A DNA stretch of 64,000 bases from IMG/VR virus record IMGVR_UViG_3300017978_000189. One strand, 5' to 3'. How positions within the stretch are numbered: position 1 is the stretch's first letter; each line of letters begins with the position of its first letter. The position numbers and the translations under genes were made by a program. Below the pieces are notes generated by a model. That model had not been told where the DNA came from. It was given only the letters and a program-made list of their open reading frames with translations, and did no database searches. Origin of the DNA: an uncultured virus (IMG/VR IMGVR_UViG_3300017978_000189). Lineage: Duplodnaviria > Heunggongvirae > Uroviricota > Caudoviricetes. Below are positions 566 through 35,700 of this stretch, piece by piece.

Positions 566-931
566 TTATTTTCTTTGTGACTTGCAATTAGGGCATATCA
601 ACATTAGATTATCTTCTTTGTTGTTGTAACTGTCACCATCTTTATAGATTACATCTAATGGGATAGCTAGACCGTTATGATGTGTGTTATCACATTCCTG
701 GCAACGATGTTCTCTTTGATTAATCAAGTACTGTCTTACCCACTCGGGAATCTTTGCCCACGCTTGTGGCGTAGCTGATTCTTTCCATTTCTGAACATTC
801 TCAAACGCCTTGTTTCTGCGTTGGTGTTCTTGTTGGCAACTATTATTACAGTACTTGTTAGTGTATGAGTGACCTTTGATAGGATTAACTTTTCCACAGT
901 TTAAACAAGTAAAACAACCTAAATTTGACAT
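566..931 (-). CDS. Zinc-binding protein with degenerate HNH domain
   Basis: CxxC...CxxxC N-terminus; C-terminal CxxC...DGD..NN..NL..ICPNC HNH pattern, but the usual His positions read IY and CK. Confidence 0.7.
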   Translation of the reverse strand: MSNLGCFTCLNCGKVNPIKGHSYTNKYCNNSCQQEHQRRNKAFENVQKWKESATPQAWAKIPEWVRQYLINQREHRCQECDNTHHNGLAIPLDVIYKDGDSYNNKEDNLMLICPNCKSQRK

Positions 932-1541: not shown

Positions 1542-1590
1542 ATTAGCTCCATACATATACAACGCCTTTGCCTTACATTACGTTGACAAA

Positions 1591-1616
1591 GAAAAAGGCT
1601 CCGAAGAGCCTTTTCT
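1591..1616 (-). terminator. Intrinsic terminator of the tmRNA (possibly bidirectional)
   Basis: AAAAGGCTC-TTCG-GAGCCTTTTT; cUUCGg tetraloop. Confidence 0.85.
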
Positions 1617-1990
1617 GAGTTTCTGTTGCGAGGTATGTCTTACCCCAAGCAGTGTTTAGGCTGCTAATGCGTAAACTGAATCGTTTGCATTTATAGGTTT
1701 TGCTTCTACGACCGGGAAATACTGATATCATATTGACATGACATTACTGTACTCTTACCCCCAATCCTACGGGTTTCACATTCCCGTGCTGTCCACTTAC
1801 TTACTTGTTGCCCTGTCGAAACCATGACAGGCCCATTATAAAACACACTATGTGGAATCGAACCACTGACCCTTTCACTCCGAAGAGACCGTGCAATACG
1901 CTTAGTCGCCGACTAGTATGCTTTATGGTGGACCTGGCGGGAGTCGAACCCGCGTCCAGAACACTTTTCTATCCGCTTCATACAGCAATA
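1617..1990 (-). ncRNA. ssrA: Circularly permuted (two-piece) tmRNA gene
   Basis: Acceptor piece GGACGCGGGTTCGACTCCCGCCAGGTCCACCA ends at 1926 and lies upstream of the coding-piece 5' end GGGCCTGTCATGGTTTCGAC starting at 1834. GGGCCTG pairs with CAGGTCC, giving G3:U70. Tag ORF 1688-1656 reads ANDSVYALAA*. Outer boundaries are approximate. Confidence 0.93.
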
Positions 1991-1991
1991 A

Positions 1992-2087
1992 TCATTCACC
2001 GTCAGGAAATTGCTTCTTCCAATCCATTATCCAATAGATGGCTCCACCAACTAATCCTGCGATGACTATCCAAAATAAGTACGTCAT
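1992..2087 (-). CDS. 31-aa single-pass membrane microprotein
   Basis: Manual: MTYLFWIVIAGLVGGAIYWIMDWKKQFPDGE; AATAAATA motif 5 nt before the ATG. Confidence 0.6.
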   Translation of the reverse strand: MTYLFWIVIAGLVGGAIYWIMDWKKQFPDGE

Positions 2088-17738: not shown

Positions 17739-18656
17739 TTAAGCGTAGTTCGTCAATACAGTTGGGGTGCCCCAAGCATTAGAAGTTACATATGTTGTTG
17801 ACGGTGGCTTGACAGTCAAGTTCATTGTAGTCCCAGTAGATACAGTTAAGCCGACACCTTGTGACCAGTTTTCATCAATTGTAGTTACGAATGTAATTAT
17901 ACCGCCGGTTACGTCAACTTTTGCAGTTACATTAATGAAAGATGTAACATATTTTGACAATGCACCCACAGCAGATTGTTTGAATATTTCAACTGAAGTT
18001 GTTGTTAACGCATGATATCCAGTATTAGTACTGATAGTAAAGTCAGTACCCACTGAACCAGAACCACCTGTCTTTGTTGTTCCTGTAAAACTTGTTCCAG
18101 CGATAGTTGATGTGCCAGCACTCAACGTAACTGTACCAAATGCACGACATAAATCATAGAACACTTTATCGATGCCGGAAGATAGATTTGAACCATGTGA
18201 ACATGTAATAGCTAGTTGTCCGCCTGCATTAAAGAAATAACGTGCAGCAGCTCCAGATGTAAATGTAACTGTAGTTGTGTATGTTACTTTATCTAAGAAC
18301 GTTGTAGTTGTTGCCTTTGATGTAGTGACTGACGTTGCTTGCGCGGAAGCATTCAATCTGTTTGTAGTGATAGTTGCCAAATTCGTATTGATAGCATTCA
18401 CGAATTTAACTGAATCCCCAGCTGCTGGTGCAGTGACCGCAGTGATTGTAGAATTCTGATGCGAGGCAATCGAGCTGATTTTGTTTACTAAGTCTGCCCA
18501 TTCTGTAGCTCCTACTTTTCCACCAGCAGCAACTACTGGAAGACTAGTTTGTCCGTACCCAGAATTTCCAGAACCAGAACCCCAAACTGCGTTTAGAGTT
18601 CCTACCAAACTATTGTAATCTTCCGCTTGAATTAATCCATATTGTTGATATGTCAT
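17739..18656 (-). CDS. Virion structural (tail fibre/collar-like) protein
   Basis: Thr/Gly/Ser-rich, GYGQ and RYFFNAGG motifs, GAGGA SD, tail-module location. Confidence 0.65.
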   Translation of the reverse strand: MTYQQYGLIQAEDYNSLVGTLNAVWGSGSGNSGYGQTSLPVVAAGGKVGATEWADLVNKISSIASHQNSTITAVTAPAAGDSVKFVNAINTNLATITTNRLNASAQATSVTTSKATTTTFLDKVTYTTTVTFTSGAAARYFFNAGGQLAITCSHGSNLSSGIDKVFYDLCRAFGTVTLSAGTSTIAGTSFTGTTKTGGSGSVGTDFTISTNTGYHALTTTSVEIFKQSAVGALSKYVTSFINVTAKVDVTGGIITFVTTIDENWSQGVGLTVSTGTTMNLTVKPPSTTYVTSNAWGTPTVLTNYA

Positions 18657-20715: not shown

Positions 20716-23700
20716 TCAAATATTGTTCATTTGCAAGAACTTCGCAGGTTCAGTCTGACTCAACTGCAACGGAATCTCGAACGTATGATATTGGAACACT
20801 GTAGTATCTGTCCAAACTCTATCATAGTACGCTGGGTCCATTACCTTTGCGCTACTTAAACTAATTACTCTGCTATTGACAGGGTGATATGGTTGAATCT
20901 GTGTTCCGTATGAACCTCTTGTGATTCCAAGCAATACGTTATTTTCTAAGTCAACTTCTGCAAAATGAATCTTTTCACCGTTGACTTCGATAGTATCACC
21001 ACGGTAAATTGTCAAGGTCAATTCATCACCAACTTCAACAAAATCGTCAAACACTACTGCAGGACGACCAGTAATCATTCTCAATGCTGTGAAATCGTAA
21101 GGAACCTGAACGTCTTTAGTTATATCATAGATTGACACGCCTGACACATCAGTGAAGAAGCCGTTAACAAATGCATATAGTGTACCATCGGCATTCTGTT
21201 CTACAATTGATTGTGTATTTGACTTCTCAATCAAGTACTCAACGTCTTGAACATGGATTTCTGTGTCAACATCGTTGATTTCTTTAACCAACCATGTTGT
21301 GTCTTCCATATTCATACGGCGAATAACTTTATTGTTGTTCTTGTCAATCTCGATGCGATATGTTTGCTGATTTGGTGAAGCTGACGATACCATAGCAGTT
21401 GCCATTACAACTTGACCTTCTTGTACAGGATAGTCAATAGTCATCAAGTTGTCATCCCCAAATGTAATTAACGCAGGGTCGATGCGAAGACCATCAACTG
21501 TCACCCAAGCACGTTGACCGTTGCTGTATACAATCGGAGACATTGGGCTCGGTACCAACGTATCTGGACTCGGTACTGTTATTGAGTATGTTGAGTAATT
21601 GTCAGTTGACACTTCACTAGCAGTAGACATATATTGACGAGTAATACCATTAAACATAGTTACTGCTACAGTTTGTCCTTCCTGAACTTCGTTCAATAAA
21701 GTTAGTGTGAAACTGTTTTCATCTATTAAGTAGTCGTTTAAGAATCTTAAACGAACACCGTCGACTTCAACGATTGCACTTGGAATTGAATTTCTAAAGT
21801 TAGGGGTAGGTAGAGCTGTCACTCCTAATGAGATAACAAACTCAGTACCACCTTCAGTAAACAATTGGGTTTCTGGCAATGAGACATAATGCTCATCAAT
21901 GTTGTCAGAAGATTTACCAGTACGTACAATAGAATATACAATGTAATCTGTTTCCGAATCGTATGTTTCGTTCAGTGACAAGATTAACGAATTGTTGTCG
22001 CCTTCATACGTTGTGAAGTCTACCCCAAACTCTAAGCGTGTTAACACTTCGCCTTGTTTTTGTGCAAGAACGACTGGAGTAAGGTCTTTACCATACAACA
22101 TTGGCAGTCCGGTGTTAATAGAGCTATGTCCGGTATTAACGTCATCGAACAACGGCATAGTCTCAGTGCTTTCACGTTGTCTCTCTGTCGCATTGCCAAA
22201 TTCATAAAGTTCTAATAACACAGTTTTCCCTATCAAACCTTCACTGTTAACTGTAACAGTTTTAGTATTCCAGTTGATTGTGTAAGTGTACGGGATTGCT
22301 ACTGTTGAGAAGTTTTCATACAAACGAGTCATAGTACCATCTTCATTTATAATGAATACCGCTGCACCTGCACCATTGGCTACAGTTTCCGCGAAAGATG
22401 CTGTTAGAGTTTCGTTGATTTCACGCTTGACTTGGATCATACTAAATCCAGACGCATAGTACCAAATCTGTTCAGATCCGTCTCTGTTCCAATATGCACC
22501 GGGCGCTGAGGTAACAGTCATGTTGACTTTATCTGAAATAATGCCAGCGACCATTTCTTCTGGTCCATAACCAAACAAGAAGTCGTTGCCCTTAACTACA
22601 TAAGTAGTGTCAGATAAAGTTTGAGTCAAGATGTTTGTCCAAGTTGAACCATTAGAGCTAACTCGCAATGTTCCGTTTTGTCCAGAAATTACAAAATTGC
22701 TATTAATGAATACAATCGAGAACAATGTTTCATTGACGGTAACTGACTGTTGTACCCATGTCAAACCATCATCTGACGTTAAAATGATGCCAGACGCAGT
22801 GATTGCAATTAACATTCCATTTCCGTAAGCAACGTCAATGATAGATTCGTTGATATCGTCACCGTCGATGAACGCTTCAACCCATGTTACTGCATTTCCG
22901 CTGAACATTATCTTACCAGATTCTCCTACTGCTACCAATCCTTCAGGTGTTGCTGTTGCTGCTACTGGAACAAACATAGTATTCACTGAATTTACCACTG
23001 ACCATGTCTTTGCGTCAACACTAGTCAAGACTAATGCAGCAGTACCGAGTGTTGGTGCAGGAGTATCGACTCCATCAGTCACAATTATTCTAGATCCTAC
23101 AGCAACATATCCTTTATATTGCTCAGTGTCTAAGAATACTACATCTCTGAGAGTATTAAATGTTCTAATTGCATCACCGACTGTGTGAGTAGTTGTCCAG
23201 ACTAAGCATCCAGATGATGCATCAATTTTGCTTCCGACAGTGATGAACTCACCGTCCACTGTTGCGGAATTCAAAATGCCACCTAAACTAATTTGTAAAG
23301 TAGAGTCATCGTATGAACCGTCATCAAAATCTAACGAATCGTAAGTAGTTTTATCACCTAGACCTATCCAGCGAGCTCCATCAAAACTAACCAATAGTGG
23401 ATTAGTATCATCATCAAGAGTAATTACATACTTTTCATCTGAATAAGAGAAACTTGTCACTGGCAATTCTTGTAGAGAAATTCTAGTTGATTTCCATGTG
23501 CCAACCTCAGTTTGTGTCAACACGAACGTTAGACCGTCACATGTAGCGACTGCGACATAATTTGTGCCGTTAAAGACTACGCCCTTAACATCAGCTTCGC
23601 TATTTGTGAATAAGTTATCAGTCAAGATTACATCTTCTTCAACAACGTCTTCAGGTGCAAACTTGTTACCAAAGTACACAGTGTTTGGATAAGTAATGCC

Positions 23701-26700
23701 TTTTAATAATTGCTGATGGTCTTTCGGAACCATACCAATTGTTGGCTGATAGAATCCGTCAATACGTTCCAACGCTGTCATTGACACGTCGGCAGTTGTC
23801 AACGGAGTCCACTTAGATGGGTCAAACACCTCATCAAAATTACTCTCCTTACATGCCCAAATTACTCCGGCATATGTTACTATCGAGACAGTCTCGTGCT
23901 GTGAGAAGATATCGTGAGACACTGGTTCAGGTAAGTAAGCATAATCATTGCCTACGTCACCGAAGTCCTGTGTTAGATTCAACGCACCATTCCAAATGAA
24001 TGATGTGAACGGTACTCTACTAATCATCGCTGGGTCTGAGTATACGTTAACTTCTGTGCTATTAACTGGCTTAACATAGAATTCATCAAATGTGCCGGCT
24101 GCTCTACCTGATACAGTTGCAATTATAATCGCACCAGTGTTTTCATCAGCATACTTGATTAGAATAGTCGCATCATTTACACCATCTTGTCCACCTAGTT
24201 CTGAGCCACTAATTCTAATTACATAGTCGTTAGTGTAGATAGTTCCCGGAGATACTACTTTAATAGTGTACACTTCTGATAACTTGTTGTTACCAAATTT
24301 TGGTCTAAAGATTTGAATCTCAGCACGTCCGTTTGTTCCATCAACAATTGATGGAGTATAACTAGGAGTAACTTTGTAGAATTGCAGCATTGCGTTATCA
24401 ATTTGCCCAGGGCTAATGTTACTGTATGCGTAGTCAAATCCTACGACTGCAAAGCCGTTGTCATTACGCAGACCATTAATTGGTAACACTACACCTTGTG
24501 CGCTTGATAAGATTGTAGTAGAACTACTTTCTTCAGAAGAAGAAGAATCGTTACCTAAACTAGAGTAAGGAGCTGACCAGAATAAACCTGGTTGCCATTC
24601 TTTAACTTTACTTGAATAACTAACTCTGTCAAATTTGATAGTTGTTTTCAAATCACGAACACCAGTAGTTCTCATTGTAGGTACTAGTTGTGCAGTGACA
24701 TGTACGTTCAGTACATAGCCAGCTGTTTTTACTGTATTGTTGAACTGAATTCCTTTAGAATCAGTTTTTGCATCTTTGTATGTTTCAAAGAATGTAAGTA
24801 CATAACTTCCACTGCTCTCTGATACTTTTACATAATAGAACCCATCGGCAATTACTGGCTCACCGTCAGTGACCGATTCAACTTTTACAACATCATATGA
24901 ACTAATATCAGCAGTTACATTAACTGTTGTAACTAACTTACTATTGGCAACATCAATTAGATTATCAGCGCCAAGAGTATCAGTGCTAAAATTATCAAAT
25001 GTGAATGTTGCGCTAGGTTCGACAATCAATTCAGGAGTAGTTACATAACCTTCACCTGGTTGAATTACTTTTACTGCCACTACTTTATCAGCCTGCATCA
25101 CAGCTTCGAATAATGCTTCGCTTCGTGGGGCTGGGTAAACAGTAGTGTCAATCACCGCTGTAATCTTTGGAGGGAGTTGATAGTTTTTACCAGGGTTTAA
25201 AACAAACACATCAGGTGTATACATAAAGATAGGTGTGCCTACATGATGTACTGAACGAGGTGTATTATTGACACCACGAGAAACTCCAGTTAACTTGCCA
25301 AGCTGTCTGTCGATACTAGTATAACCGATTTGTTCTGCGCCCAAGTACATGATACCTTGATAAGGAAGTGTGTACGCATTTTCGACATAAACATCAATCA
25401 TGGTCTCGTTAATGTACTGAGTCAAGTTTGTGATGTGCTGAGCCTCACCACCCTTAACGCCCATTCCTAAATTGCTAATCCAGTCAAAGTATCTATAGTC
25501 TCCCCAAACAGAGTCATTGATTGTTTTTTGTTCTGCGTTTGCAGATACACCGAATACAACTTGAGGTGATACAAATTTACCTGCTTCAAAGTCGTAGTAT
25601 GACGGCAAATCAAAGTCCGTAGCTGTACCGTTGACTACATCAGATACTTTATATGTTTCAACAAACTCTTTAAGAACAACGCTGAACGGTTTAATTTCGT
25701 TAACATACCCTTCGATTAAAGAAGTCTCGTCTGCTATATACTTAGGAGTTTGTTTCAACGTGCGGACTGTGTAATTAACATCAGCAAACTTTGTCTTATT
25801 CAACCATGGTAGATAGTTATGAGATTCAATGTTCTCACTTTGAATGAATTCAAACATCAATGTCAAACTCTTGTTACGGTGGATTTCTAAGTCACCTACA
25901 AATAGCTGTTCATTGATTGCACGTACAATATATCTAGTCTCCTGTGCAGTATTGTTGTCGTATAGTTCTAAATCATAGAAACCATTACCGAAACCAATAC
26001 CCTCTGGTGCATAGTCGTACACAGTAGATAAGAATTGATAAGTTCCATTCTCTAAACCAATACGAACCCATTCAGAATTCTGGACTACATAGACTTCTCT
26101 GTTTCCGTTAGAATTCTTAGAGACTGACACAATTAAATTCTCAACTGGTTCGATAGTTTTCAAAATATCAACCGACTCAACTTCAAACTTAGGTCTATTC
26201 TTTTCAGAGTAACCTGTTGCCCACCAATATGAGTAATCCCAATATTTTGTAGTGTCGATGGTTTCTGTAGCGGAGTGCAAGAATGTAGCCGAAGCTGTTT
26301 CTGCTACTGGGAATTGGATGATAATTTTATTAGTGTATTCAACCAAGTTCTTCAGCGCCAGCAAGCGATTGACAAACATACTTTGTCTTGGTCTTACGCT
26401 TACGCCGACTTGCATCAGTTTTGGTAAAGATGCATCAGGTACTGTTGCACCGGCAGCGTCTTCACCTGCAAAGCTGTCAACATATTTTGCGTATAGACCG
26501 TAAGGCTCTGAAACACCTTTCTTGAAATCAGGTAATCCTGGTAAGAACTCAGTTGTATTTGTACTAATCAACTTAAATTCTGTGTGACCTCGAACATCTC
26601 TGTCTGTTGTACTGAAACCAACGTGTATGAATGTATCATCACCTCGAATAAAATCTAATGAGTTATACAATCCAAACACATTAGTGCGTAATGGAGCAAC

Positions 26701-29700
26701 GAAAGGTACACCAGACTCTTGTGGGTATTTGATATACGTTGCGATTGCAGAGTCGGTCAGCGTCTTGCCTAATTTTGAACTAAGCATGTTGGTACCGTTA
26801 ACCCAGAAATAGTATTTTGCAACCAATGCATCAGATGAATCAGTTGTAAAGGATACGCTAAATTGTGTAGTGTTTAACACGATGCCAGGACCAGTGTATT
26901 CGTTAGGTGGAGTGCTACTCTCGACCCAAGTATATACATCGACTGAACTGCCCGGGAACGGAACACCCCAGTGTTTACTATTGTAGGCAACATCATTAGC
27001 TTGATGGTAATTGTAGAATCTTACGTTAGCAGTATTGAACCAAATTTTACCAACGTGGTCTTTACCCCAAGCAATCGTAGTATTAGTGCTACCATTGTTA
27101 TATGCTGCAGGGTCAACAGAGCGGGCAAAATCGATGTTCGATTCTACAACACTTAGTAATTTTCCTTGCAATGGATCAAAATAATCTAATGAGACTTCAG
27201 TTACATTAGTTGAGTTATTGAACAATTGGATCTTGCTTATTTTGTTAATATCAACTACTTGCTCAGATGAGCGATGTACAGACCAGTTAGGTGTTCCAGT
27301 GTCATTTTTATAGATAGTAACTTTGCCACCTAAAGATTCGAAACCAGGTGAGCCAATGATGACTCTGTTGTTAGTAAAATCAACAGAAGCACCATACATC
27401 GGGTGGGATCCATACGCACTAGTTATGTCATTACATGGTTGAGAGTAGACATATTTGCCCATGTTATCTAACGCCTCTTCATATGAATCGATATAGTCGT
27501 ACATATAGACTGCACCGGCACGAGTGAAGGAATCCTCCCAGATTATCATATTATTATCGAAGGCAGTATCAGTATGTGCTGTAGTTTCATCTGTGTAATC
27601 GAAACGTGTAGCTGCAAATCTAGTTGCTGTCGGCGCACCGACTACGAATGAATTCGCCTCATTATACTTAACTGCGAAACCGAACTGTGTTTGATGCTCT
27701 TTATGTGGAGCAACAATAGTTTGCGACATTGGATAAGGCATCATACCTAACATTGTCCAGAAGTTACCGTTAAACACACTTAGATTCAATTTGTTCATGC
27801 TAGGTGCTAACGACATGTCACGCAAGCGAATAATTAATCTGTTATCTTCAGTTGCATACGCAAATATGTTTGTAATATTTGAATTATTGATGCGGTTAGC
27901 AATGTTAGTAGCTGCCCCTAATGGTGTGTATAGTTGACTTGTTGATGGTGCGCAACTTACATTGTACGGGAAAGGTACGCTAAATGTAATCACGCCAGTA
28001 GTGTCATTGACTGAACTATATGCAATATCATATGAGTCACCTGCAAACTTAACAAATCTAATCACGCCAGATTCAGGTAATAGTTTTGCTTCGTTTGGAT
28101 CGATAGTCACTGAAGTAGAGTTTTGAGTTACAGTCGTAGTGATATTAGAAATACCAAACGCATTCACACGATATCCGTTCAAGAGTATGTATGTAGGTTC
28201 GTTCAATGATGCAGGAGTCGACCCAACTAACATACCATAGCGTTTGCCTGGATCAGTGAATCGATAGACTGCACCCTCGTAACCGTCAGAAGTTAATGCA
28301 TATGGAGCTCCGACAATCAATTCTGTACCGTCACTAGAACAGTCCATAGAATAACCGAACCACTGACCTGAGCGTAAGTCTTCGGGAGCACCGTTGATAA
28401 ATGTTCCTGTTTGAACTACCTTAGAATCCTTGACTGTGATAATGTCACCTGCATCAAACCCGATTGGTCCGAAATAAATTGCATTCAGGATAATCAAGTA
28501 TTGGTTAGTACGCAGTCTCTTGCCGTTTTTATAAACCATTGCAGAAATGCCAGGGTACCATGGTAGAATTACCAAGTGTGTGCTTGACTTTGGTACATCT
28601 CTTTGTACTTCAAATGATTCTGCTAGTCTATCAAACGCATAGATGTGTCCTGTAGCAATTTGAGAACCTGATTGGTTGTGCTTAGGAGCACCGATGAACA
28701 GCTTCGTACCATCATAGTTAGTTGCGATACTAGCACCTAGCTGGTCGCCAGCTACATATGACACTGGGTTAGCTAAAATTTCAACTAACTCGTAGTTCAT
28801 TGTTGCAACATATAACTGAGAACCACTAGGAATACTATGAGTAAACTTACTCATTACGTAGAAAGTAGTCTTATCAGTTGTGCTGTTATATGATTTAGTT
28901 GAAACAGTGTAAGTTGCAGTATCATCGAATGAGACTTTATAAACCATTGTGCCAAGTGGGATATTAGGGAAGTATGTAGGTACACCATTCTCTAACCCAA
29001 CCATCAACACAGGTTGTTGCTCAATATAGAACATTGTCTTATTCTCGGAAGGTACATAACTTGACAATATCACTGTAAACAATGTATTTTTAAGATGTGT
29101 ATCACCGAAAGAAATAGTATCTCCGTTTGACAACAATGAAGTTTGATTACCTTCAAGTTTAAACGATTCGCGGATGCGGTCGACTGCATCACTTCTATCA
29201 GGAACAAACTCTTCCGCCAATACAGCCAACTGAGCAAATGATGTTGCGAACGTCACACGCTGACCGTCCTTTACAGTTTGTGTTGCATTACCTGCAACTG
29301 TAAATGAGTTTGAATTGACAACGATATCAGAAGCAACTGCTAAACCTAAACCTGTTTTTAGCAATGAAGGATCTAATGTGTACATGAATACAGAATCGTA
29401 GTCACCTGACTGTGCATTCATAAAGATGTGGTTGCCGTCGCCTGATATAGCGATAGAGTTACCAACAATATCAGATGCTTCGCCTACCCAAACAATAGTT
29501 TGTTCTAACACTGGTTGAGAGAAACCCTCATCAGTTGCATCACGGTATACAAAGATTTGACTGATGTTCGAATGTGGAGCAGAGATAACAATAGTCTTGT
29601 TAGCATGTTTAATCACAGAACCAAAGTTGGTACCTGGATATGATAATGTATTCTTTGGATAGTAGACTCCGTCATCTTTTAAAGATGCATAAACAGTTAC

Positions 29701-32700
29701 TACACCTTCTGTTTTATCTCCAGCAAAGTAACCGATACCAGGTACATATGCAACAGCATCACCTAAGCTAGATGAAGTTGAGCCTTCATTAACTTGAGTG
29801 TGTTTGTAGTTTAGTTCCTTCTTGTATACTTTCCAATCACCGTCACTAGATTGGTCTACCCATACTTTAGCAGGGTCATATTCACTGTGATTCAATGGAA
29901 GATACGGGATGTCTCTTGGTGTAGTGACACGGTGGCTTTGCAACAAGAAAGCTAAACCTGTGCTAGTAACACTAGTAATAGTAGAGTCAACTGTCTTGTA
30001 AACTGTCAACGCAGTAAGTCCAGGAACATCAGCTACAACATGATATCCGTCAAATCTTGTATCAAAATTCTGCAAACCGATTACTTGATTAATCTGGATG
30101 CCGTGAGGTTTGTCGAATGTAATAGTAACAGTGCCATTTAAATTATTGGTCGCAGATATTACCTGAGACGGTACTGTGATAGGAGTGAACACATCCCATT
30201 TGTTATCTTTATTTGCTACCCAAATATAATCGTTTCTGTAGATTGCACCAATTGCAGCATCATTGAAACTATCAATCGAGTATCCCATTTCAATCACATC
30301 ATCGAGGTGTACGTAACCGGCGCTTCGTAAAATGTCGTCTGTTCCAACAGCACGTTGTGGTAGAATAAATTCATTCGCTAGGGTTCTACCATAATTAGTA
30401 ACATCTGCAAATGAAACTTCTTGGTTTACGTCTGGAACACGGACGTTATTGACTAATGAAACTACAGACGGGTTGCTAGAAAGTTTACTTGCAGAAAGTC
30501 CAAATTGCACGTAGTTGTGGTTATTCACCCCGCCGAATTCACTGTTCTTGATTGCCCAGTTTTCATGTACAGAGTAACTGACTGTTTCATTTTTAATGGT
30601 TGCGTTATTCAAGCCCGCTACTGTTAATGGTGTTCCTTTAACAGCAATAGTATCAACGTGCATCTTAACCTGAGAAACTTCCGACAAGTCTGCACTTGCC
30701 AAATAATCACGTGGTCTAAATCCAACTAACGAGAAGCCTAGTAAATCAGAATCCAATGCCATGTTAGCATTGTTAATATCATAGAACAATGTTGATTCTA
30801 CTGAGCGAGATGACTGGTTCGGCAACATGCGTTGACGTACCATTTCATATGATGTTTTGATCCAATCAGTTAGGTCAAATTTATTTGTTGGGTTGATGAC
30901 TGTTTGATTAGCCATCCAATAATCATTCTTGTATTTTACAACTTGACCCTTTACGTATTTTGCGTTAGGAACCCAATCAGTGATAGAGTCTAGCGACATA
31001 ATAAAGCCTGCGTTGTTCACATAACCTTGCCATTCTGCGGTCTTTGTACCCTTAACATACATACGTTGCTGACGCAAGCCTGTAGTTAAATTAGCGATAG
31101 TGTCTCCGAAAACTGTCTTATTATCAAACACAACAACATGCTCAATTGAGCCAACGTGTCCGGAGAAGAAACTTAATGCATCTCCTGCGTTTAATGCTTT
31201 GATTGTAAGTTCGGTTCCGTTTCTGTGTACTGACAAATCAGATAAAGAGATTGGAAGCAAGTTTTGATTTAGAACAAAGTTCTGCTTAGTCAATGTCAAT
31301 GGTTCAACAATTGCATTAGGTGTGTTGATTCTCAAGACGTTTGCTGCAGGGTTTACGTTAACTGTACTGCCAACGTCCCAACCTGTTTGAATCCAGTATA
31401 ATATTTCTGCAATCATCTGGTCCCATGACAATTCGATGCTATTCTCAACATCAATGAAAGTCATACCTTGTGATTCTAAATACTTGCCGTAGCCCTTGAT
31501 GAATTCTAAAAGACTTTCAATAGTCTTAAATTCATATCCGTAAGGAACAGTTACTTTAGTTGCCGAATACTTTTTCGCCAACTGTATGTTTTTACCGTTT
31601 ACTGATAGTGTTTCATACGAACCAGATACAGGTGTCATCGCTAAGAAGAAAGCACTTGATTGTCTGTTGCCGTAAACTTTATACCCGGTTTGTGTGCGTT
31701 GTACAATTACTGAACTGTAAGTGATAGTATCAACTGCTTGGTTTCTGTGTAATAGAATACTATAGCTATCTTCTGGAATTAAAGATGCTTTAGAAGAAGA
31801 TGTTGAACTATTTTCTGTAAAGAATTTAATCATATCTTTATTAGTAAAGCCAGCTACGTTATAAGTCAAACGCACATCTGTGTTACTAAACAATGACTTG
31901 ATATCTTCAGAACCAACTGAACCGCTGTGGTTAACATAGTCAACAATCCAATTGATGTAACTATGAGCAGCAGTGGTGTCATCAGTCCCGTAAATTGTGA
32001 TTTCAGGAGGAGAAATTCTATAACGTTCGTTGGTCAAATATTGGTCAAACGTAGAACTATATTGATAGTAATCTAAGTCAATGTTCAAGTTAAAGAATTT
32101 TGCAGGAGATTGCAATGCAGTCACACGAATCAAATCAAATGCCCAAGCACTAGATTTTCTATACGCATATTCTGCAGGACCAACATCACCCATCATCCAT
32201 GTTTGCTTGAATGTTCCTACATCGTAACTAGAGATGCAATTGCTGAAAGGTGAAACCAAACGACCCAACGAGTCTGCTGGAATAATTGACATTAACCCAG
32301 GACGTACCGCAGTTTCAACAATATAGTCGTCACCGTTGTTCCATACGTAACCATTAGCAATATCTTGCCACATGAGTGTGTTATCACATGTATACGGAGC
32401 TTCTCCGTAATGACTATCCCACCACGTTGGCTTGATAGACAATCCTAACATTTCCCACGGTGTTGTGTTAGGTGTAGTGGTATCGTACAACCACAAGTAA
32501 ATACCTCTCCAGCCACCGATTGTGATAGGAGTATTATTTAACTTTAACTTAGAACCAGTATAGTTCCAAGTCCAATCATTTGATTGGTCATATGTTTGAG
32601 TTTCATAATCAATTCTATTCAAACCAACCCAATTCATAAATTGAGTTTCGTATGCACTTGCAAATGTTTTTGTTTCGTGTGTTGAGTTTCTGAAAAAGCC

Positions 32701-35700
32701 AGGAACGATATCAGCGTATTTGATAGGAGTAGTTTTATTCAACACTTTCAAGTTGTTGAAAATTCGTTGTTCGAATTCAAACAACACTCTATCACGTGCA
32801 TCTGTCAAAATACCAGCATTGTATGAACCGTATAAGCGATTGTATGAGCCATCATGACCTTTGATGAACCATGTAGGTGATACATAACTTGCATCTAATA
32901 CAACTTCAGGAATAAATGCAGGGTACAAGCCCAACTTAGTTGGAGTACTTGGTACAAATGATCCGAATGTTTGATGATACTCATTGATTTGAATCTTATC
33001 ACCTGGGATCAAATCTTTAGTAATTGTTAATTTAGCTTCATCAGTAGATACAACATAATCAACTGTGCGAGTTAGTTGAGTAGTTACAACACCTGAAGTG
33101 CCTGTTCTTGTCAAATACACTAACACACTAGAATAGTTTGCATTATCAAAATCATATATCTTAGACAAATCAAATTCAGAATTATCTAGTGTTGACTTGA
33201 ATGTGTATGTTTTAGACAACGCTTTGTTTTTCGCTGGCAGCATGTCACCCCAGAAGAAAGAGTTACTTACTGTCTTTGGTTCTGTGATGATTTCGATTAC
33301 TTCGTCAAGAAGACCGATTGCTGAGTCGATGTACGTAAAGTCATTATTTTCTAAAGTGTTGACAATCAATGCTTTGTATTTTGCATACTCATTGCTATTG
33401 AACGTCATCGCATCAAAGAAATTATAACCGTTATTACGCAAAAATGCTGCCGGTAGAGTTAGAGGAGCACTGTTCTGAATGATTCGAGTACCATAAGGAA
33501 CTAGATTATCTAAATCTCTAGAATTGTTTGCCCCGAAGGCTTGCCCCGTTAAACCCGGTGCGTTGTTAAACATTGTCTTATAGTGACCACGTAGGTCGCC
33601 TAAAGTCAATTTTTCAATCTGCTCGTTGTACGGATTGTGGTCTAAATTTAGTGGAATTTGATAGTAACCAAGTTGGCTAACCGAATCACTTAACAACATA
33701 ATATCAACTTTAGTTCCAACTTCTGGATAGGTCGAAAGTGTAATAGCTGTTGTTTGTCCAGTAGTAGTTACAGTGAACTCTGAGTTTGATTGACGGACAT
33801 TGTCAACATAAACAACGGTTGTTGCCCATGCTGTTTCAGAAGCCGATTTAACTGGGATATCACAAATAAATGTCGGCTCGAAAGGCGTTCCAGTGTAAAC
33901 CATGTTAAACACTTGGTATTGGAAACTTTCTTCAACCGCAGTTTGCCATCCTAAATTATACTTGCCATCGTTGACAACGTAGCCTGTTCTAACATTCTCA
34001 TTGATTTCTTTACCGTTCAAATTATAAGTGAAGGTATCTGAATTCAATGAAACTGTAAACTCGATATCACCCACGTTCTGAATGAAGTCATATTTGACAG
34101 GGAAGCGTAACTCAGCATCATTAGATCCTGTGCCTGTGCTATACTGAAATAATGTTGTTCCAGAGAATGATGTTGATGGGTAGAAATCCATGTCACTAAA
34201 ACTATGACCATTCTTGTCAACGATATCAAACAACGGGAATTGATTGATGTATGCTTTATCCTGTGAAGGTAGCCATGAGCTGCCATTGAAATAATAAATC
34301 TTACCTGCGTTTGAACCAGAAGTTACAGTAACTTGATCCATGTGTTTTACTGAATCAGTAGGATTTAGTGTTAACTCTAAATTAGTAACTAGATAGGTTG
34401 AGCCTGTTGCATCCCAATTACCAGTCGGCATTGTAGGATACAGTAACGTAATTTGAGATGCTGACGAACTGACAACTTGGAACGTACCTTGGAATGAACC
34501 ATTCGTGCTACTAACTAGCGACAAATACTTCTTCGCTGGAACTGTTGTAGTTTGTGGGGTAATATTAAAAGTTAAGGATGCACTTCCATCAGCATTAATG
34601 ACAGACGCACTCAAGTTAGTTACTGGAATCTGCGCTGAGTTAACTGTTTCTGAGTAGAAAACTGTATAGACAGTTGTTCGGACATCCTTGTTGCTATCGT
34701 TGGCAAACAGCACACGAGCGCCGTTGAATAACGTACTCAATGTACCATCAGGTAAGAAGTCAGTAGAACCTGCTACTGTTTTCAACGCATCAGTTTCAGT
34801 GAAGTTAATATAAGTGATGTTATCAACTGAAGTGTCACCTGAATTCATCATCTTTAGATTAGGATAGAATTCAATGATTGGACGTTTAGCCATCATCTCA
34901 ACATTACCCAATGCTCGTGACACGAGTTTTGCACCTGGGTTATGTTCTAACGTAGTTTTTAAAACATCAATATGGAACCAGCGGTTTCCACGTGACCATG
35001 CATTTTTGTTTTTGCTATTACGAGAAATAGTGATGTAATCTTTTTCGATTGGCAAGAAAGTTGTTCCATTGAATGGACCCACGTCATACGGTTGTCCATC
35101 AAAATCAGAACTCTCTGCATACGCAAAACGCTCAGGTACAATCAATTCAGAAATAGGCACTAAGTTAATACTAGAACCTACACCTTCAACATAGTATTGC
35201 CCATCGGCATACTCTTCAGGGTAAATGTTACCTGCAAACTCAACTTTCAAGCCGTTTGTAAATTTAATACCGTTGATACTGGTATAGTTTTTCTTTCCCA
35301 AGATATCATTAACGTTGATGAATGAACTATCTTCTTTCTCAACAATTCTAATAACGCCGTAGATTTCAGAGTTAGTGCCGTACTGGTAGTAGTACGTATC
35401 GCAAGGTGCAGTCACAAACGGAACTAAAATGATTTCACCGTATTCATTCTTGACAAAATCTCTGCCGTTGTATTCAACACCGTGTTGTATCTTCATCAAT
35501 GAGTTGATTGGCAATGTGTCTGCTTCAATTAATTCAATGAATTGACCGTCGTTCTTATCTCCGACGTATACAACTTTAAATGCATGTGCTGACAAACGTG
35601 AAGACGCAGTTTCATCAAAACTTGTCGTATCGTATTCTTCTGTGTCAGTGTCATACAGTTTAGTAATATTGCCTGTAGCAGTGATAGTGTGACCGTAAAA

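What the first reader, a model, noticed from the sequence alone, without database searches (positions are those of the whole stretch)
1835..1925. The tmRNA intervening segment is a tRNA-sized pseudo-tRNA
Seen: the excised segment is closed by a 12-bp stem (TAAAGCATACTA 1925-1914 with TAGTGTGTTTTA 1850-1839, two G:U). It contains GGGTC followed by a T-arm GTGG-TTCGATT-CCAC next to the 3' stem strand, and a CTC-TTCG-GAG hairpin near the anticodon position; 1920-1844 spans 77 nt. It has no good D or anticodon stems and no CCA. Inference: either a decayed tRNA that records how the permutation arose, or a tRNA mimic acting as a processing guide or as a decoy for host anticodon nucleases.
Basis: partly seen in the sequence, partly recalled or inferred. 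Interest (0 to 1): 0.7.

Follow-up and report, generated by a model that had tools for sequence, protein, structure and literature searches.

The report
Swappable pseudo-tRNA in phage tmRNA spacer
The piece cut out of this phage's two-piece ribosome-rescue RNA is a degenerate tRNA-like module that aquatic phages pass around as optional cargo, and it also sits between ordinary tRNA genes in giant phages.

Summary
Window 1590-2035 (-) is a permuted two-piece tmRNA gene of a myovirus-like phage. It carries a variable-loop-like GGGTC and a T-arm abutting the 3' stem strand. ARAGORN at default settings and Rfam do not call it a tRNA.

- The IVS is not a relic of the permutation. Bacterial relatives and some phages carry a bare 29-33-nt hairpin here.
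- 161 distinct phage IVS fall into 106 unrelated interior types set in the same stem.
- Near-identical tmRNAs carry unrelated interiors.
- This interior is 88-99% identical across diverged tmRNA genes.
- The same ~84-nt module, 89-100% identical, also lies just after CCA ends in tRNA arrays, mostly beside tRNA-Lys genes.
- T-arms abutting the stem recur in 18 of 161 IVS against 0.67 expected. One relative passes the Rfam tRNA threshold, so the module is tRNA-derived.

Best reading: exchangeable tRNA-derived passenger RNA, released by tRNA-processing enzymes. tmRNA maturation does not need it. Release and function are inferred, not shown.

The parts
1590..2035 (-). Permuted (two-piece) tmRNA gene: acceptor piece, then IVS, then coding piece
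   Evidence: Rfam RF01850 scores 108.6 bits (threshold 84) over 1590-2035. RF04321 scores 119.2 bits (threshold 47) over 1656-1987. ARAGORN calls a permuted tmRNA at 1565-2018 with tag ANDSVYALAA.
1926..1987 (-). Acceptor piece: tmRNA T-arm, 3' acceptor strand CAGGTCC, discriminator A1929, CCA 1928-1926
   Evidence: Alignment to RF04321 and the sequence itself.
1835..1925 (-). Intervening segment (IVS), 91 nt, absent from the mature tmRNA
   Evidence: It is an unaligned insert between the CCA and GGGCCTG in both Rfam alignments.
1914..1925 (-). 5' strand of the 12-bp closing stem
   Evidence: Pair probabilities 0.77-1.0. The same register is kept in 145 of 161 distinct IVS. In an alignment of 14 copies, 92% of cells pair, against 33-60% in slid controls.
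1839..1850 (-). 3' strand of the closing stem. TAAT at 1838-1835 follows, then G1834.
   Evidence: The IVS ends in TGAT or TAAT in 153 of 161.
1844..1920 (-). 77-nt pseudo-tRNA: 7-bp acceptor-like stem, degenerate middle, GGGTC, T-arm
   Evidence: The Rfam mascRNA (tRNA-like) model aligns exactly here at 14.5 bits, below threshold. ARAGORN gives a cloverleaf only at the -ps80 setting.
1852..1866 (-). T-arm GTGG-TTCGATT-CCAC
   Evidence: Rfam T-arm match. It is invariant in 13 of the 14 aligned copies; the 14th, L419, is a chimera. L107 and L299 carry a one-base insertion that turns the flanking A.A into an A-U fifth pair.
1590..1834 (-). Coding piece, with the tag reading frame at 1688-1656

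Best explanation
The IVS is one copy of a discrete, tRNA-derived RNA module of about 84 nt. The module is an acceptor-like stem stacked on a T-arm, with the D and anticodon region degenerate. It sits as optional cargo in the loop of the hairpin that normally forms the IVS of this tmRNA lineage. Phages exchange the module as a unit between diverged tmRNA genes and the spacers that follow CCA ends in tRNA arrays.

Inferred mechanism:
1. The module is transcribed inside the tmRNA precursor.
2. The closing stem holds the CCA end and G1834 together, so RNase P cuts 5' of G1834 as in any tmRNA.
3. The stem-plus-T-arm mimic offers a second RNase P site 7 bp from the T-arm, between G1921 and C1920.
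4. That cut leaves a 5-nt trailer on the acceptor piece, which 3' exonucleases trim.
5. A pseudo-tRNA of about 77-86 nt is set free.

tmRNA maturation does not need the module. Its near-invariance suggests it is kept for a role of its own or spreads selfishly. That role is unknown.
For: Shown:
1. Slot architecture. In 161 distinct IVS from 261 loci, the first IVS base pairs with the fifth base from the end in 145. The median stem is 12 pairs, against a median of 7 when 5' and 3' ends of different IVS are cross-paired.
2. Bare slots exist. Three of four distinct 29-30-nt viral IVS are an 11-12-bp stem plus a tetraloop. Beta-proteobacterial tmRNAs (Gallionellaceae, Burkholderiales and Cupriavidus records) have 30-33-nt hairpin IVS ending TGAT or TGCT.
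3. The interiors fall into 106 clusters.
4. Interiors are swapped. On a tree of the mature tmRNA parts, the T-arm class needs 14 changes across 17 rows. L036 and L147 are 98.6% and 90.7% identical in the mature parts but 53% in the IVS. The window-type IVS is 88-99% identical between genes whose coding pieces are 55-77% identical.
5. The module occurs outside tmRNA. Of 14 distinct copies, 6 are in tmRNA IVS and 8 in tRNA arrays or cassette runs, and the same interior variants occur in both settings. Array copies are 88.8-100% identical while the 80 nt upstream, mostly tRNA genes, are 42-75% identical. Two jumbo-phage records carry both the module in their tRNA array and a tmRNA with a different IVS.
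6. tRNA descent. T-arms are enriched and positioned against the stem. L113 passes the Rfam tRNA threshold and L024 falls just below it.
7. Changes in the stem keep pairing: G.U to A-U, U.G to C-G, C-G to U-A.

Established knowledge, recalled: RNase P measures the acceptor plus T-stem helix and cuts minihelix substrates. Read in passages of PMC1920247: t-elements of plant mitochondria are cut by RNase P and RNase Z.
Against: - No RNA ends were seen. The RNA runs are contigs only, so excision sites and the stability of the freed RNA are inference.
- The T-arm has only 0.25 probability in the nearest-neighbour ensemble.
- The T-arm and the middle of the module never vary, so covariation says nothing for or against them.
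- The proposed second RNase P site lies inside a continuous helix with C at +1 and G at -1, which is a poor context.
- 143 of 161 IVS lack a T-arm, so any help to processing is dispensable.
- Near-identity between copies could reflect recent spread alone, without selection.
Confidence: 0.6

Rival explanations
1. Neutral filler. A tRNA gene once landed in the IVS loop, decayed, and now only keeps the stem closed. Its conservation is due to recent recombinational spread through the conserved flanks. The freed RNA is degraded and does nothing.
For: The D and anticodon arms are gone. The slot tolerates 106 unrelated interiors as well as bare hairpins. The conserved tmRNA flanks give homology arms for exchange.
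Against: The 66-nt interior is almost invariant in 14 distinct copies that sit in unrelated flanks and two kinds of host gene, while the neighbouring functional tRNA genes differ by 25-58%. The few changes preserve pairing or UNCG-type loops. T-arms recur in several unrelated cassette families.
Confidence: 0.25
2. tRNA mimic with a defence-related role. The freed pseudo-tRNA binds or distracts a host factor that acts on tRNA, for example a tRNA-Lys-directed anticodon nuclease or a tRNA-modifying or tRNA-repair enzyme.
For: In 8 of 13 array loci the module lies directly after a tRNA-Lys(UUU) gene or within the cassette run behind one. Those phages carry two to three tRNA-Lys genes. The module is strongly conserved.
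Against: There is no anticodon stem-loop to be recognised or cut. The other 5 array loci lie beside tRNA-Ser, tRNA-Met or tRNA-His genes. No experiment or protein partner is known.
Confidence: 0.1
3. Relic of the gene permutation. The segment is the remnant of a tRNA that mediated, or was trapped by, the rearrangement that made the tmRNA two-piece.
For: It lies exactly between the two pieces.
Against: Bacterial and some viral members of the same tmRNA lineage have a bare hairpin there. Only 18 of 161 IVS have a T-arm, and they are scattered on the tmRNA tree. The module also occurs in tRNA arrays.
Confidence: 0.02
4. A working but unorthodox tRNA, or a self-cleaving ribozyme (HDV-like 'theta' type) that trims the CCA end.
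For: It sits directly 3' of a CCA end, as theta ribozymes do (PMC10879173, passages read). ARAGORN draws a cloverleaf at -ps80.
Against: Rfam gives no tRNA and no ribozyme match at E up to 10. No CCA is encoded, while the neighbouring array tRNAs encode it. The 5'-most bases pair with the 3'-most bases, which does not fit the HDV fold, where the first strand pairs internally (sequence).
Confidence: 0.02

Closest known systems
Intervening sequence of permuted two-piece tmRNA genes (Rfam RF04321 / RF01850), including the one reported permuted tmRNA with an intact tRNA-Ala in its IVS (PMC11915505, passages read)
   Same: Same place and fate: between the CCA of the acceptor piece and G1 of the coding piece, and absent from the mature RNA. 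A tRNA-type insert at this spot has one printed precedent.
   Different: That paper calls the tRNA-Ala case unique. It reports an intact tRNA, in a MAG nominally assigned to archaea. Here the insert is a degenerate pseudo-tRNA in phages, one of more than 100 interchangeable interiors, and it is shared with tRNA arrays.
t-elements of plant mitochondria (PMC1920247, passages read); also mascRNA at the MALAT1 3' end (recalled)
   Same: Non-canonical tRNA-like folds that keep the GGTTCRANYCC T-arm and an acceptor-like stem, embedded in longer transcripts and used by RNase P and RNase Z as cut sites.
   Different: Those elements define mRNA or lncRNA ends in organelles and nuclei. Here the host transcript is itself a tRNA-type RNA in a phage, cleavage has not been shown, and the element is mobile between genes.
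Theta (HDV-like) ribozymes next to phage tRNA genes (PMC10879173)
   Same: A small cis RNA placed right after a phage tRNA 3' end and proposed to deal with the 3' trailer.
   Different: The element shows no ribozyme fold or match. Theta ribozymes are reported from gut phages. This element is found in contigs of public viral and metagenome collections, and runs labelled freshwater or other aquatic metagenome hold the window's tmRNA stretch.
Small stable RNAs (species 1 and 2, rnaC/rnaD) in the phage T4 tRNA cluster (recalled, not checked in a paper)
   Same: Non-tRNA stable RNAs of unknown function, co-transcribed and co-processed with phage tRNAs.
   Different: No sequence relation was tested. 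The T4 RNAs are not known to sit inside a tmRNA gene.

Membership tests
Canonical tRNA (Rfam RF00005) | Scores at or above the family threshold of 29 bits | tested here: not met
   On the IVS alone no tRNA match is listed at E up to 10. Clan matches scoring below 6.3 bits were suppressed.
Canonical tRNA (Rfam RF00005) | 7-bp acceptor stem and a 5-bp T-stem with a TTCRANN loop directly stacked on it | tested here: met
   CATACTA pairs with TAGTGTG over 7 bp. The T-stem is 4 bp plus an A.A, with loop TTCGATT, one base from the stem.
Canonical tRNA (Rfam RF00005) | D-arm, and an anticodon arm with a 7-nt loop | tested here: not met
   ARAGORN at default calls none in the window and 0 in 161 distinct IVS. 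The -ps80 drawing has mismatched stems and a 6-nt loop.
Canonical tRNA (Rfam RF00005) | Encoded or added 3' CCA, and aminoacylation | not testable with these tools
   No CCA is encoded after TAGTGTG-T. Post-transcriptional addition cannot be tested here.
Permuted two-piece tmRNA (RF04321 / RF01850), the host gene | Scores above threshold, order is acceptor piece then IVS then coding piece, tag frame ends in ALAA | tested here: met
   119.2 and 108.6 bits. Tag ANDSVYALAA. A G3.U70 pair is visible in GGGCCTG/CAGGTCC.
tRNA-like processing signal (t-element type) | GGTTCRANYCC T-arm motif next to an acceptor-like stem inside a longer transcript | tested here: met
   GGTTCGATTCC at 1864-1854 abuts the stem. 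The motif is the one used in PMC1920247.
tRNA-like processing signal (t-element type) | RNA ends that coincide with the element, and cleavage by RNase P or RNase Z | not testable with these tools
   Only contigs of RNA libraries were available, so no ends could be read.
HDV-like / theta ribozyme | Nested double pseudoknot whose first strand pairs internally, and a match to ribozyme models | tested here: not met
   No ribozyme family matches at E up to 10. The first 12 nt pair with the last 16 nt. The theta descriptor itself is in a supplementary figure that I did not see.
mascRNA-menRNA (RF01684) | Scores at or above 42.5 bits | tested here: not met
   14.5 bits, E 0.84. This is a resemblance of shape only.

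The most novel reading that the evidence does not exclude
The hairpin spacers that follow CCA ends, both in phage tRNA arrays and in two-piece tmRNA genes, are one shared slot system. Aquatic phages use it to exchange and express small cargo RNAs that the host's tRNA-processing enzymes set free. The cargo includes pseudo-tRNAs, folded RNAs, and Shine-Dalgarno-led micro-ORFs for 19-37-residue membrane peptides. Under this reading the window's pseudo-tRNA, which travels with tRNA-Lys(UUU) gene clusters, is a selected tRNA mimic that acts on a tRNA-directed host factor.
Probability: 0.15. Interest if true: 0.8.

Novelty: new variant of a known kind. Interest (0 to 1): 0.55.

Why it matters
Two-piece tmRNA is usually drawn with a throw-away spacer. 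This work shows three things about that spacer in aquatic phages:
- It is a fixed-geometry slot with more than 100 interchangeable fillings.
- At least two fillings are shared with tRNA arrays.
- The window's filling is a conserved, tRNA-derived RNA of unknown role.

This gives a route by which phages could express small RNAs and peptides at tRNA-gene levels without promoters or terminators of their own. It also affects annotation: tRNA finders and tmRNA finders interfere at these loci. And it yields clean candidates (about 80-nt RNAs, 20-40-residue peptides) for defence and counter-defence tests.

Four searches of the held library found no paper that describes this. The nearest is the single tRNA-Ala case in PMC11915505. 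The original two-piece tmRNA papers (Keiler 2000, Sharkady and Williams 2004) are not held, so I could not see what they say about IVS hairpins.

Tried and rejected
- The window's own assembly is not held. The nearest held virus record, G001, gave no permuted-tmRNA match. It is a fragment at 18% completeness.
- Cultured phage genomes: the tmRNA region matched only over the tRNA-like domain. The IVS alone matched only 20-nt T-arm stretches of ordinary tRNAs. So the module has no annotated relative there.
- Scans for longer IVS (101-131 nt) were made to look for intact tRNAs. ARAGORN at default found none in any of the 161 distinct IVS.
- RNA evidence. The 4 RNA-library runs laid are contigs only, so they give no ends, strand or level. 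The module appears in RNA-library contigs of two studies. Other contigs join the same stems across different 98- and 111-nt interiors. DNA carry-over cannot be excluded, and contigs that cross a shared 80-nt repeat may be chimeric. The lower contig depth over the IVS is no evidence of excision.
- Interior structure. The two interior variants are compatible with a GCG...UGC hairpin or with a D-like arm. With 14 near-identical copies neither can be chosen.
- I weighed a resemblance of the 3' half to tRNA-Pro (GGAGNGAAAGG then T-arm) and an Arg-like reading of the loop (TCG or ACG). Both remain unproven.
- The CCATAT...ATATGG flanks in arrays were considered as target-site duplications of a mobile element. 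They are reverse complements of each other, so they read better as a stem extension.
- The L138-family IVS and the array cassette 'A2' gave no tRNA match beyond the T-arm.
- Earlier-findings look-ups by place and by sequence returned nothing.

Full report
**What is there.** ARAGORN finds one RNA gene in the 64-kb window, a permuted tmRNA at 1565-2018 (-) with tag ANDSVYALAA. Rfam agrees: RF04321 tmRNA_permuted scores 119.2 bits and RF01850 beta_tmRNA 108.6 bits, both above threshold. The window is phage DNA. PHROGs hits include portal, major head protein, baseplate wedge and hub, and an HNH endonuclease ORF at 566-931 (-) just downstream of the tmRNA. On the minus strand the acceptor piece ends with CCA at 1928-1926, the IVS is 1925-1835 (91 nt), and the coding piece starts at G1834.

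**The observation.**
- Rfam on the IVS alone gives no tRNA match. Its best hit is the tRNA-like mascRNA model over exactly 1844-1920, at 14.5 bits and far below threshold.
- ARAGORN draws a cloverleaf only at its most permissive setting, with mismatched stems and a 6-nt loop.
- Thermodynamically the closing stem is near-certain. The T-arm has probability 0.25, with the stem-plus-T-arm fold 1.8 kcal/mol above the minimum. The CTC/GAG hairpin has probability 0.02.

**Relatives.** I scanned viral contigs for the same acceptor stem (GTCCACCA ... GGGCCTGNNNTGGNTTCGAC) with IVS lengths of 39-69, 70-100 and 101-131 nt, and also with an exact-match pattern. The 70-100 scan stopped at its 120-locus limit. 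With the window these gave 261 loci and 161 distinct IVS.
- In 145 of 161 the first IVS base pairs with the fifth base from the end. The median stem is 12 pairs, against 7 when 5' and 3' ends of different IVS are cross-paired.
- 153 of 161 end in TGAT or TAAT.
- The interiors are otherwise unrelated and form 106 clusters.
- A further scan for IVS of 1-31 nt found 7 loci with 4 distinct IVS. Three of these are just an 11-12-bp stem with a tetraloop.
- A looser scan of bacterial genomes returned two-piece tmRNAs of Gallionellaceae, Burkholderiales, Cupriavidus and others. Their IVS are 30-33-nt hairpins with 8-12 closing pairs, ending TGAT or TGCT. Other lineages in that scan have weaker stems.

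The hairpin with its UGAU or UAAU tail is therefore the basic IVS of this lineage. The phage interiors are insertions in its loop.

**Swapping.** A tree of the mature parts (70 nt plus 230 nt, 148 rows, FastTree) scatters the IVS classes. The T-arm class needs 14 changes for 17 rows, against a shuffled mean of 16.2.
- L036 carries the window-type IVS. It is 98.6% and 90.7% identical to L147 in the two mature parts but 53% in the IVS.
- Conversely, the window-type IVS is 88-99% identical among five genes whose coding pieces are 55-77% identical and whose upstream flanks are at random level.
- Contigs from RNA libraries also join the same stems across other interiors of 98 and 111 nt.

**The module outside tmRNA.**
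- A 21-base stretch of variable loop plus T-arm hit 13 viral loci. In five of them it lies among ordinary tRNA genes, and ARAGORN does not call it.
- There the whole ~84-nt module follows a CCA end and is flanked by CCATATA ... TATATGG, which extends the stem to up to 18 pairs.
- An 18-base pattern from the module's 5' interior, scanned over the metagenome collection, added 8 more loci out of 70 hits. All 8 are in arrays or runs of such hairpin cassettes.
- In total there are 14 distinct copies with flanks: 6 in tmRNA genes and 8 in arrays. The interior variants (TATTGCAC or TAATTAATGC; TTCG or TACG) occur in both settings.
- Array copies are 88.8-100% identical, while the 80 nt upstream, mostly tRNA genes, are 42-75% identical.
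- Each of five records holds one copy. Two jumbo-phage records (92% and 100% complete) hold the module in their tRNA array and also a permuted tmRNA with a different IVS.
- A second IVS type (L025) is also found in a cassette run, at 95% identity over 42 nt.
- In those arrays most spacers are 3-10 nt. CCATATGG between two tRNA-Lys genes looks like an empty slot.
- In 8 of 13 array loci the module lies directly after a tRNA-Lys(UUU) gene or within the cassette run behind one. The others are beside tRNA-Ser, tRNA-Met or tRNA-His genes.

**tRNA descent.** A T-arm of 4 bp or more with a TTCRANN loop occurs in 18 of 161 IVS, against 0.67 expected (maximum 4 in 300 shuffles; 1 on the reverse strand). 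In 16 of the 18 it abuts the 3' stem strand, as in a tRNA. The 18 belong to about six unrelated interior families.
- L113 passes the Rfam tRNA threshold at 40.9 bits, with a canonical D-arm and a 14-nt anticodon loop.
- L024 scores 25.7 bits and has lost its anticodon arm.
- The L138 family and a second array cassette ('A2') keep only the T-arm.
- The window's module sits at the decayed end of this series.

In the 14-copy alignment the closing stem pairs in 92% of cells, against 33-60% in slid controls, and its changes keep pairing. The T-arm and the middle never vary, which says nothing either way.

**Reading.**
- Shown: the IVS is a tRNA-derived, exchangeable module in a conserved hairpin slot. 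It is not required by the tmRNA and is not a trace of the permutation.
- Inferred: RNase P cuts at G1834 as in all tmRNAs. The acceptor-like stem plus T-arm may give a second RNase P site at 1921/1920, which would shorten the trailer on the acceptor piece and free a 77-86-nt RNA.
- The closest working analogues are the t-elements of plant mitochondria and, as another phage device at tRNA 3' ends, theta ribozymes.
- Whether the freed RNA does anything is open. Its conservation in unrelated flanks argues for selection or active spread. The tRNA-Lys neighbourhood is a lead, not evidence.

**Literature.** In the held library only four papers mention permuted or two-piece tmRNA together with the relevant terms.
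- PMC11915505 reports, as unique, an intact tRNA-Ala inside one IVS, and lists 79 phage tmRNA sequences (passages).
- PMC9004378 counts 53 two-piece tmRNAs in phage genomes, mostly aquatic, and says nothing about the IVS (passages).
- The founding papers are not held.
- Notes by other agents of this scan on other genomes describe the same slot-and-cargo picture. They are not independent evidence.

Noticed in passing
Related loci, IVS of e.g. L009, L020, L049, L074, L094, L136, L008, L014, L021 (viral contigs): 21 of 161 distinct IVS hold an ATG-started ORF of 15 or more codons that ends exactly at the terminal TGA/TAA just before G1 of the coding piece (shuffle mean 5.4, maximum 16). 18 of the 21 have a Shine-Dalgarno-like AAGGAG or similar in the 5' stem strand. 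The products are unrelated hydrophobic peptides of 19-37 residues. Within families the differences fall 61/30/96 on codon positions 1/2/3, and 75 of 143 differing codons are synonymous.
   Followed up: partly
Related loci L147, L131, L165, L164, L180, L091: Other IVS micro-ORFs, for example a 29-residue CxxC...HxC peptide in the 101-nt family, have no stop inside the IVS and read on into the coding piece. After RNase P cleavage at G1 such a message would have no stop codon, which is the kind of substrate tmRNA itself acts on.
   Followed up: partly
L276 1286-1412 (also L290, L292, L291): A second T-arm cassette ('A2', about 125-133 nt) lies between the two tRNA-Lys(UUU) genes of jumbo-phage arrays. 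It has an 18-bp closing stem that covaries between L290 and L291. It shares with the window's module a small hairpin, an AAAGG stretch and a T-arm.
   Followed up: partly
L425 (whole locus, minus strand); L419: Runs of hairpin cassettes lie behind a tRNA-Lys(UUU) gene, each bounded by CCATAT...ATATGG. L419 carries a chimera of the module's 5' part with the 3' end of an ordinary tRNA, joined in the T-loop.
   Followed up: partly
window 1720-1758 (-), inside the coding piece: Compared with its closest relatives, the window's tmRNA (and L005) has an extra ~39 nt (GTAAGAGTACAGTAATGTCATGTCAATATGATATCAGTA...) in the region after the first pseudoknot. L001-L004, L006 and L007 lack it.
   Followed up: no
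window 566-931 (-): An HNH endonuclease ORF (PHROGs, E 2e-9) lies about 650 nt downstream of the tmRNA gene. Free-standing nucleases of this kind could drive the local gene conversion that swaps cassettes.
   Followed up: no
window 20716-36567 (-): A single ORF of 5283 codons sits next to the baseplate genes. It was not analysed.
   Followed up: no
L415 around 18035-18134 and L416 688-787: A 100-nt spacer in the jumbo-phage arrays looks like a long-arm tRNA that ARAGORN does not call. It begins with GGGGAG and ends with a T-arm and CTCCCCGCCA.
   Followed up: no
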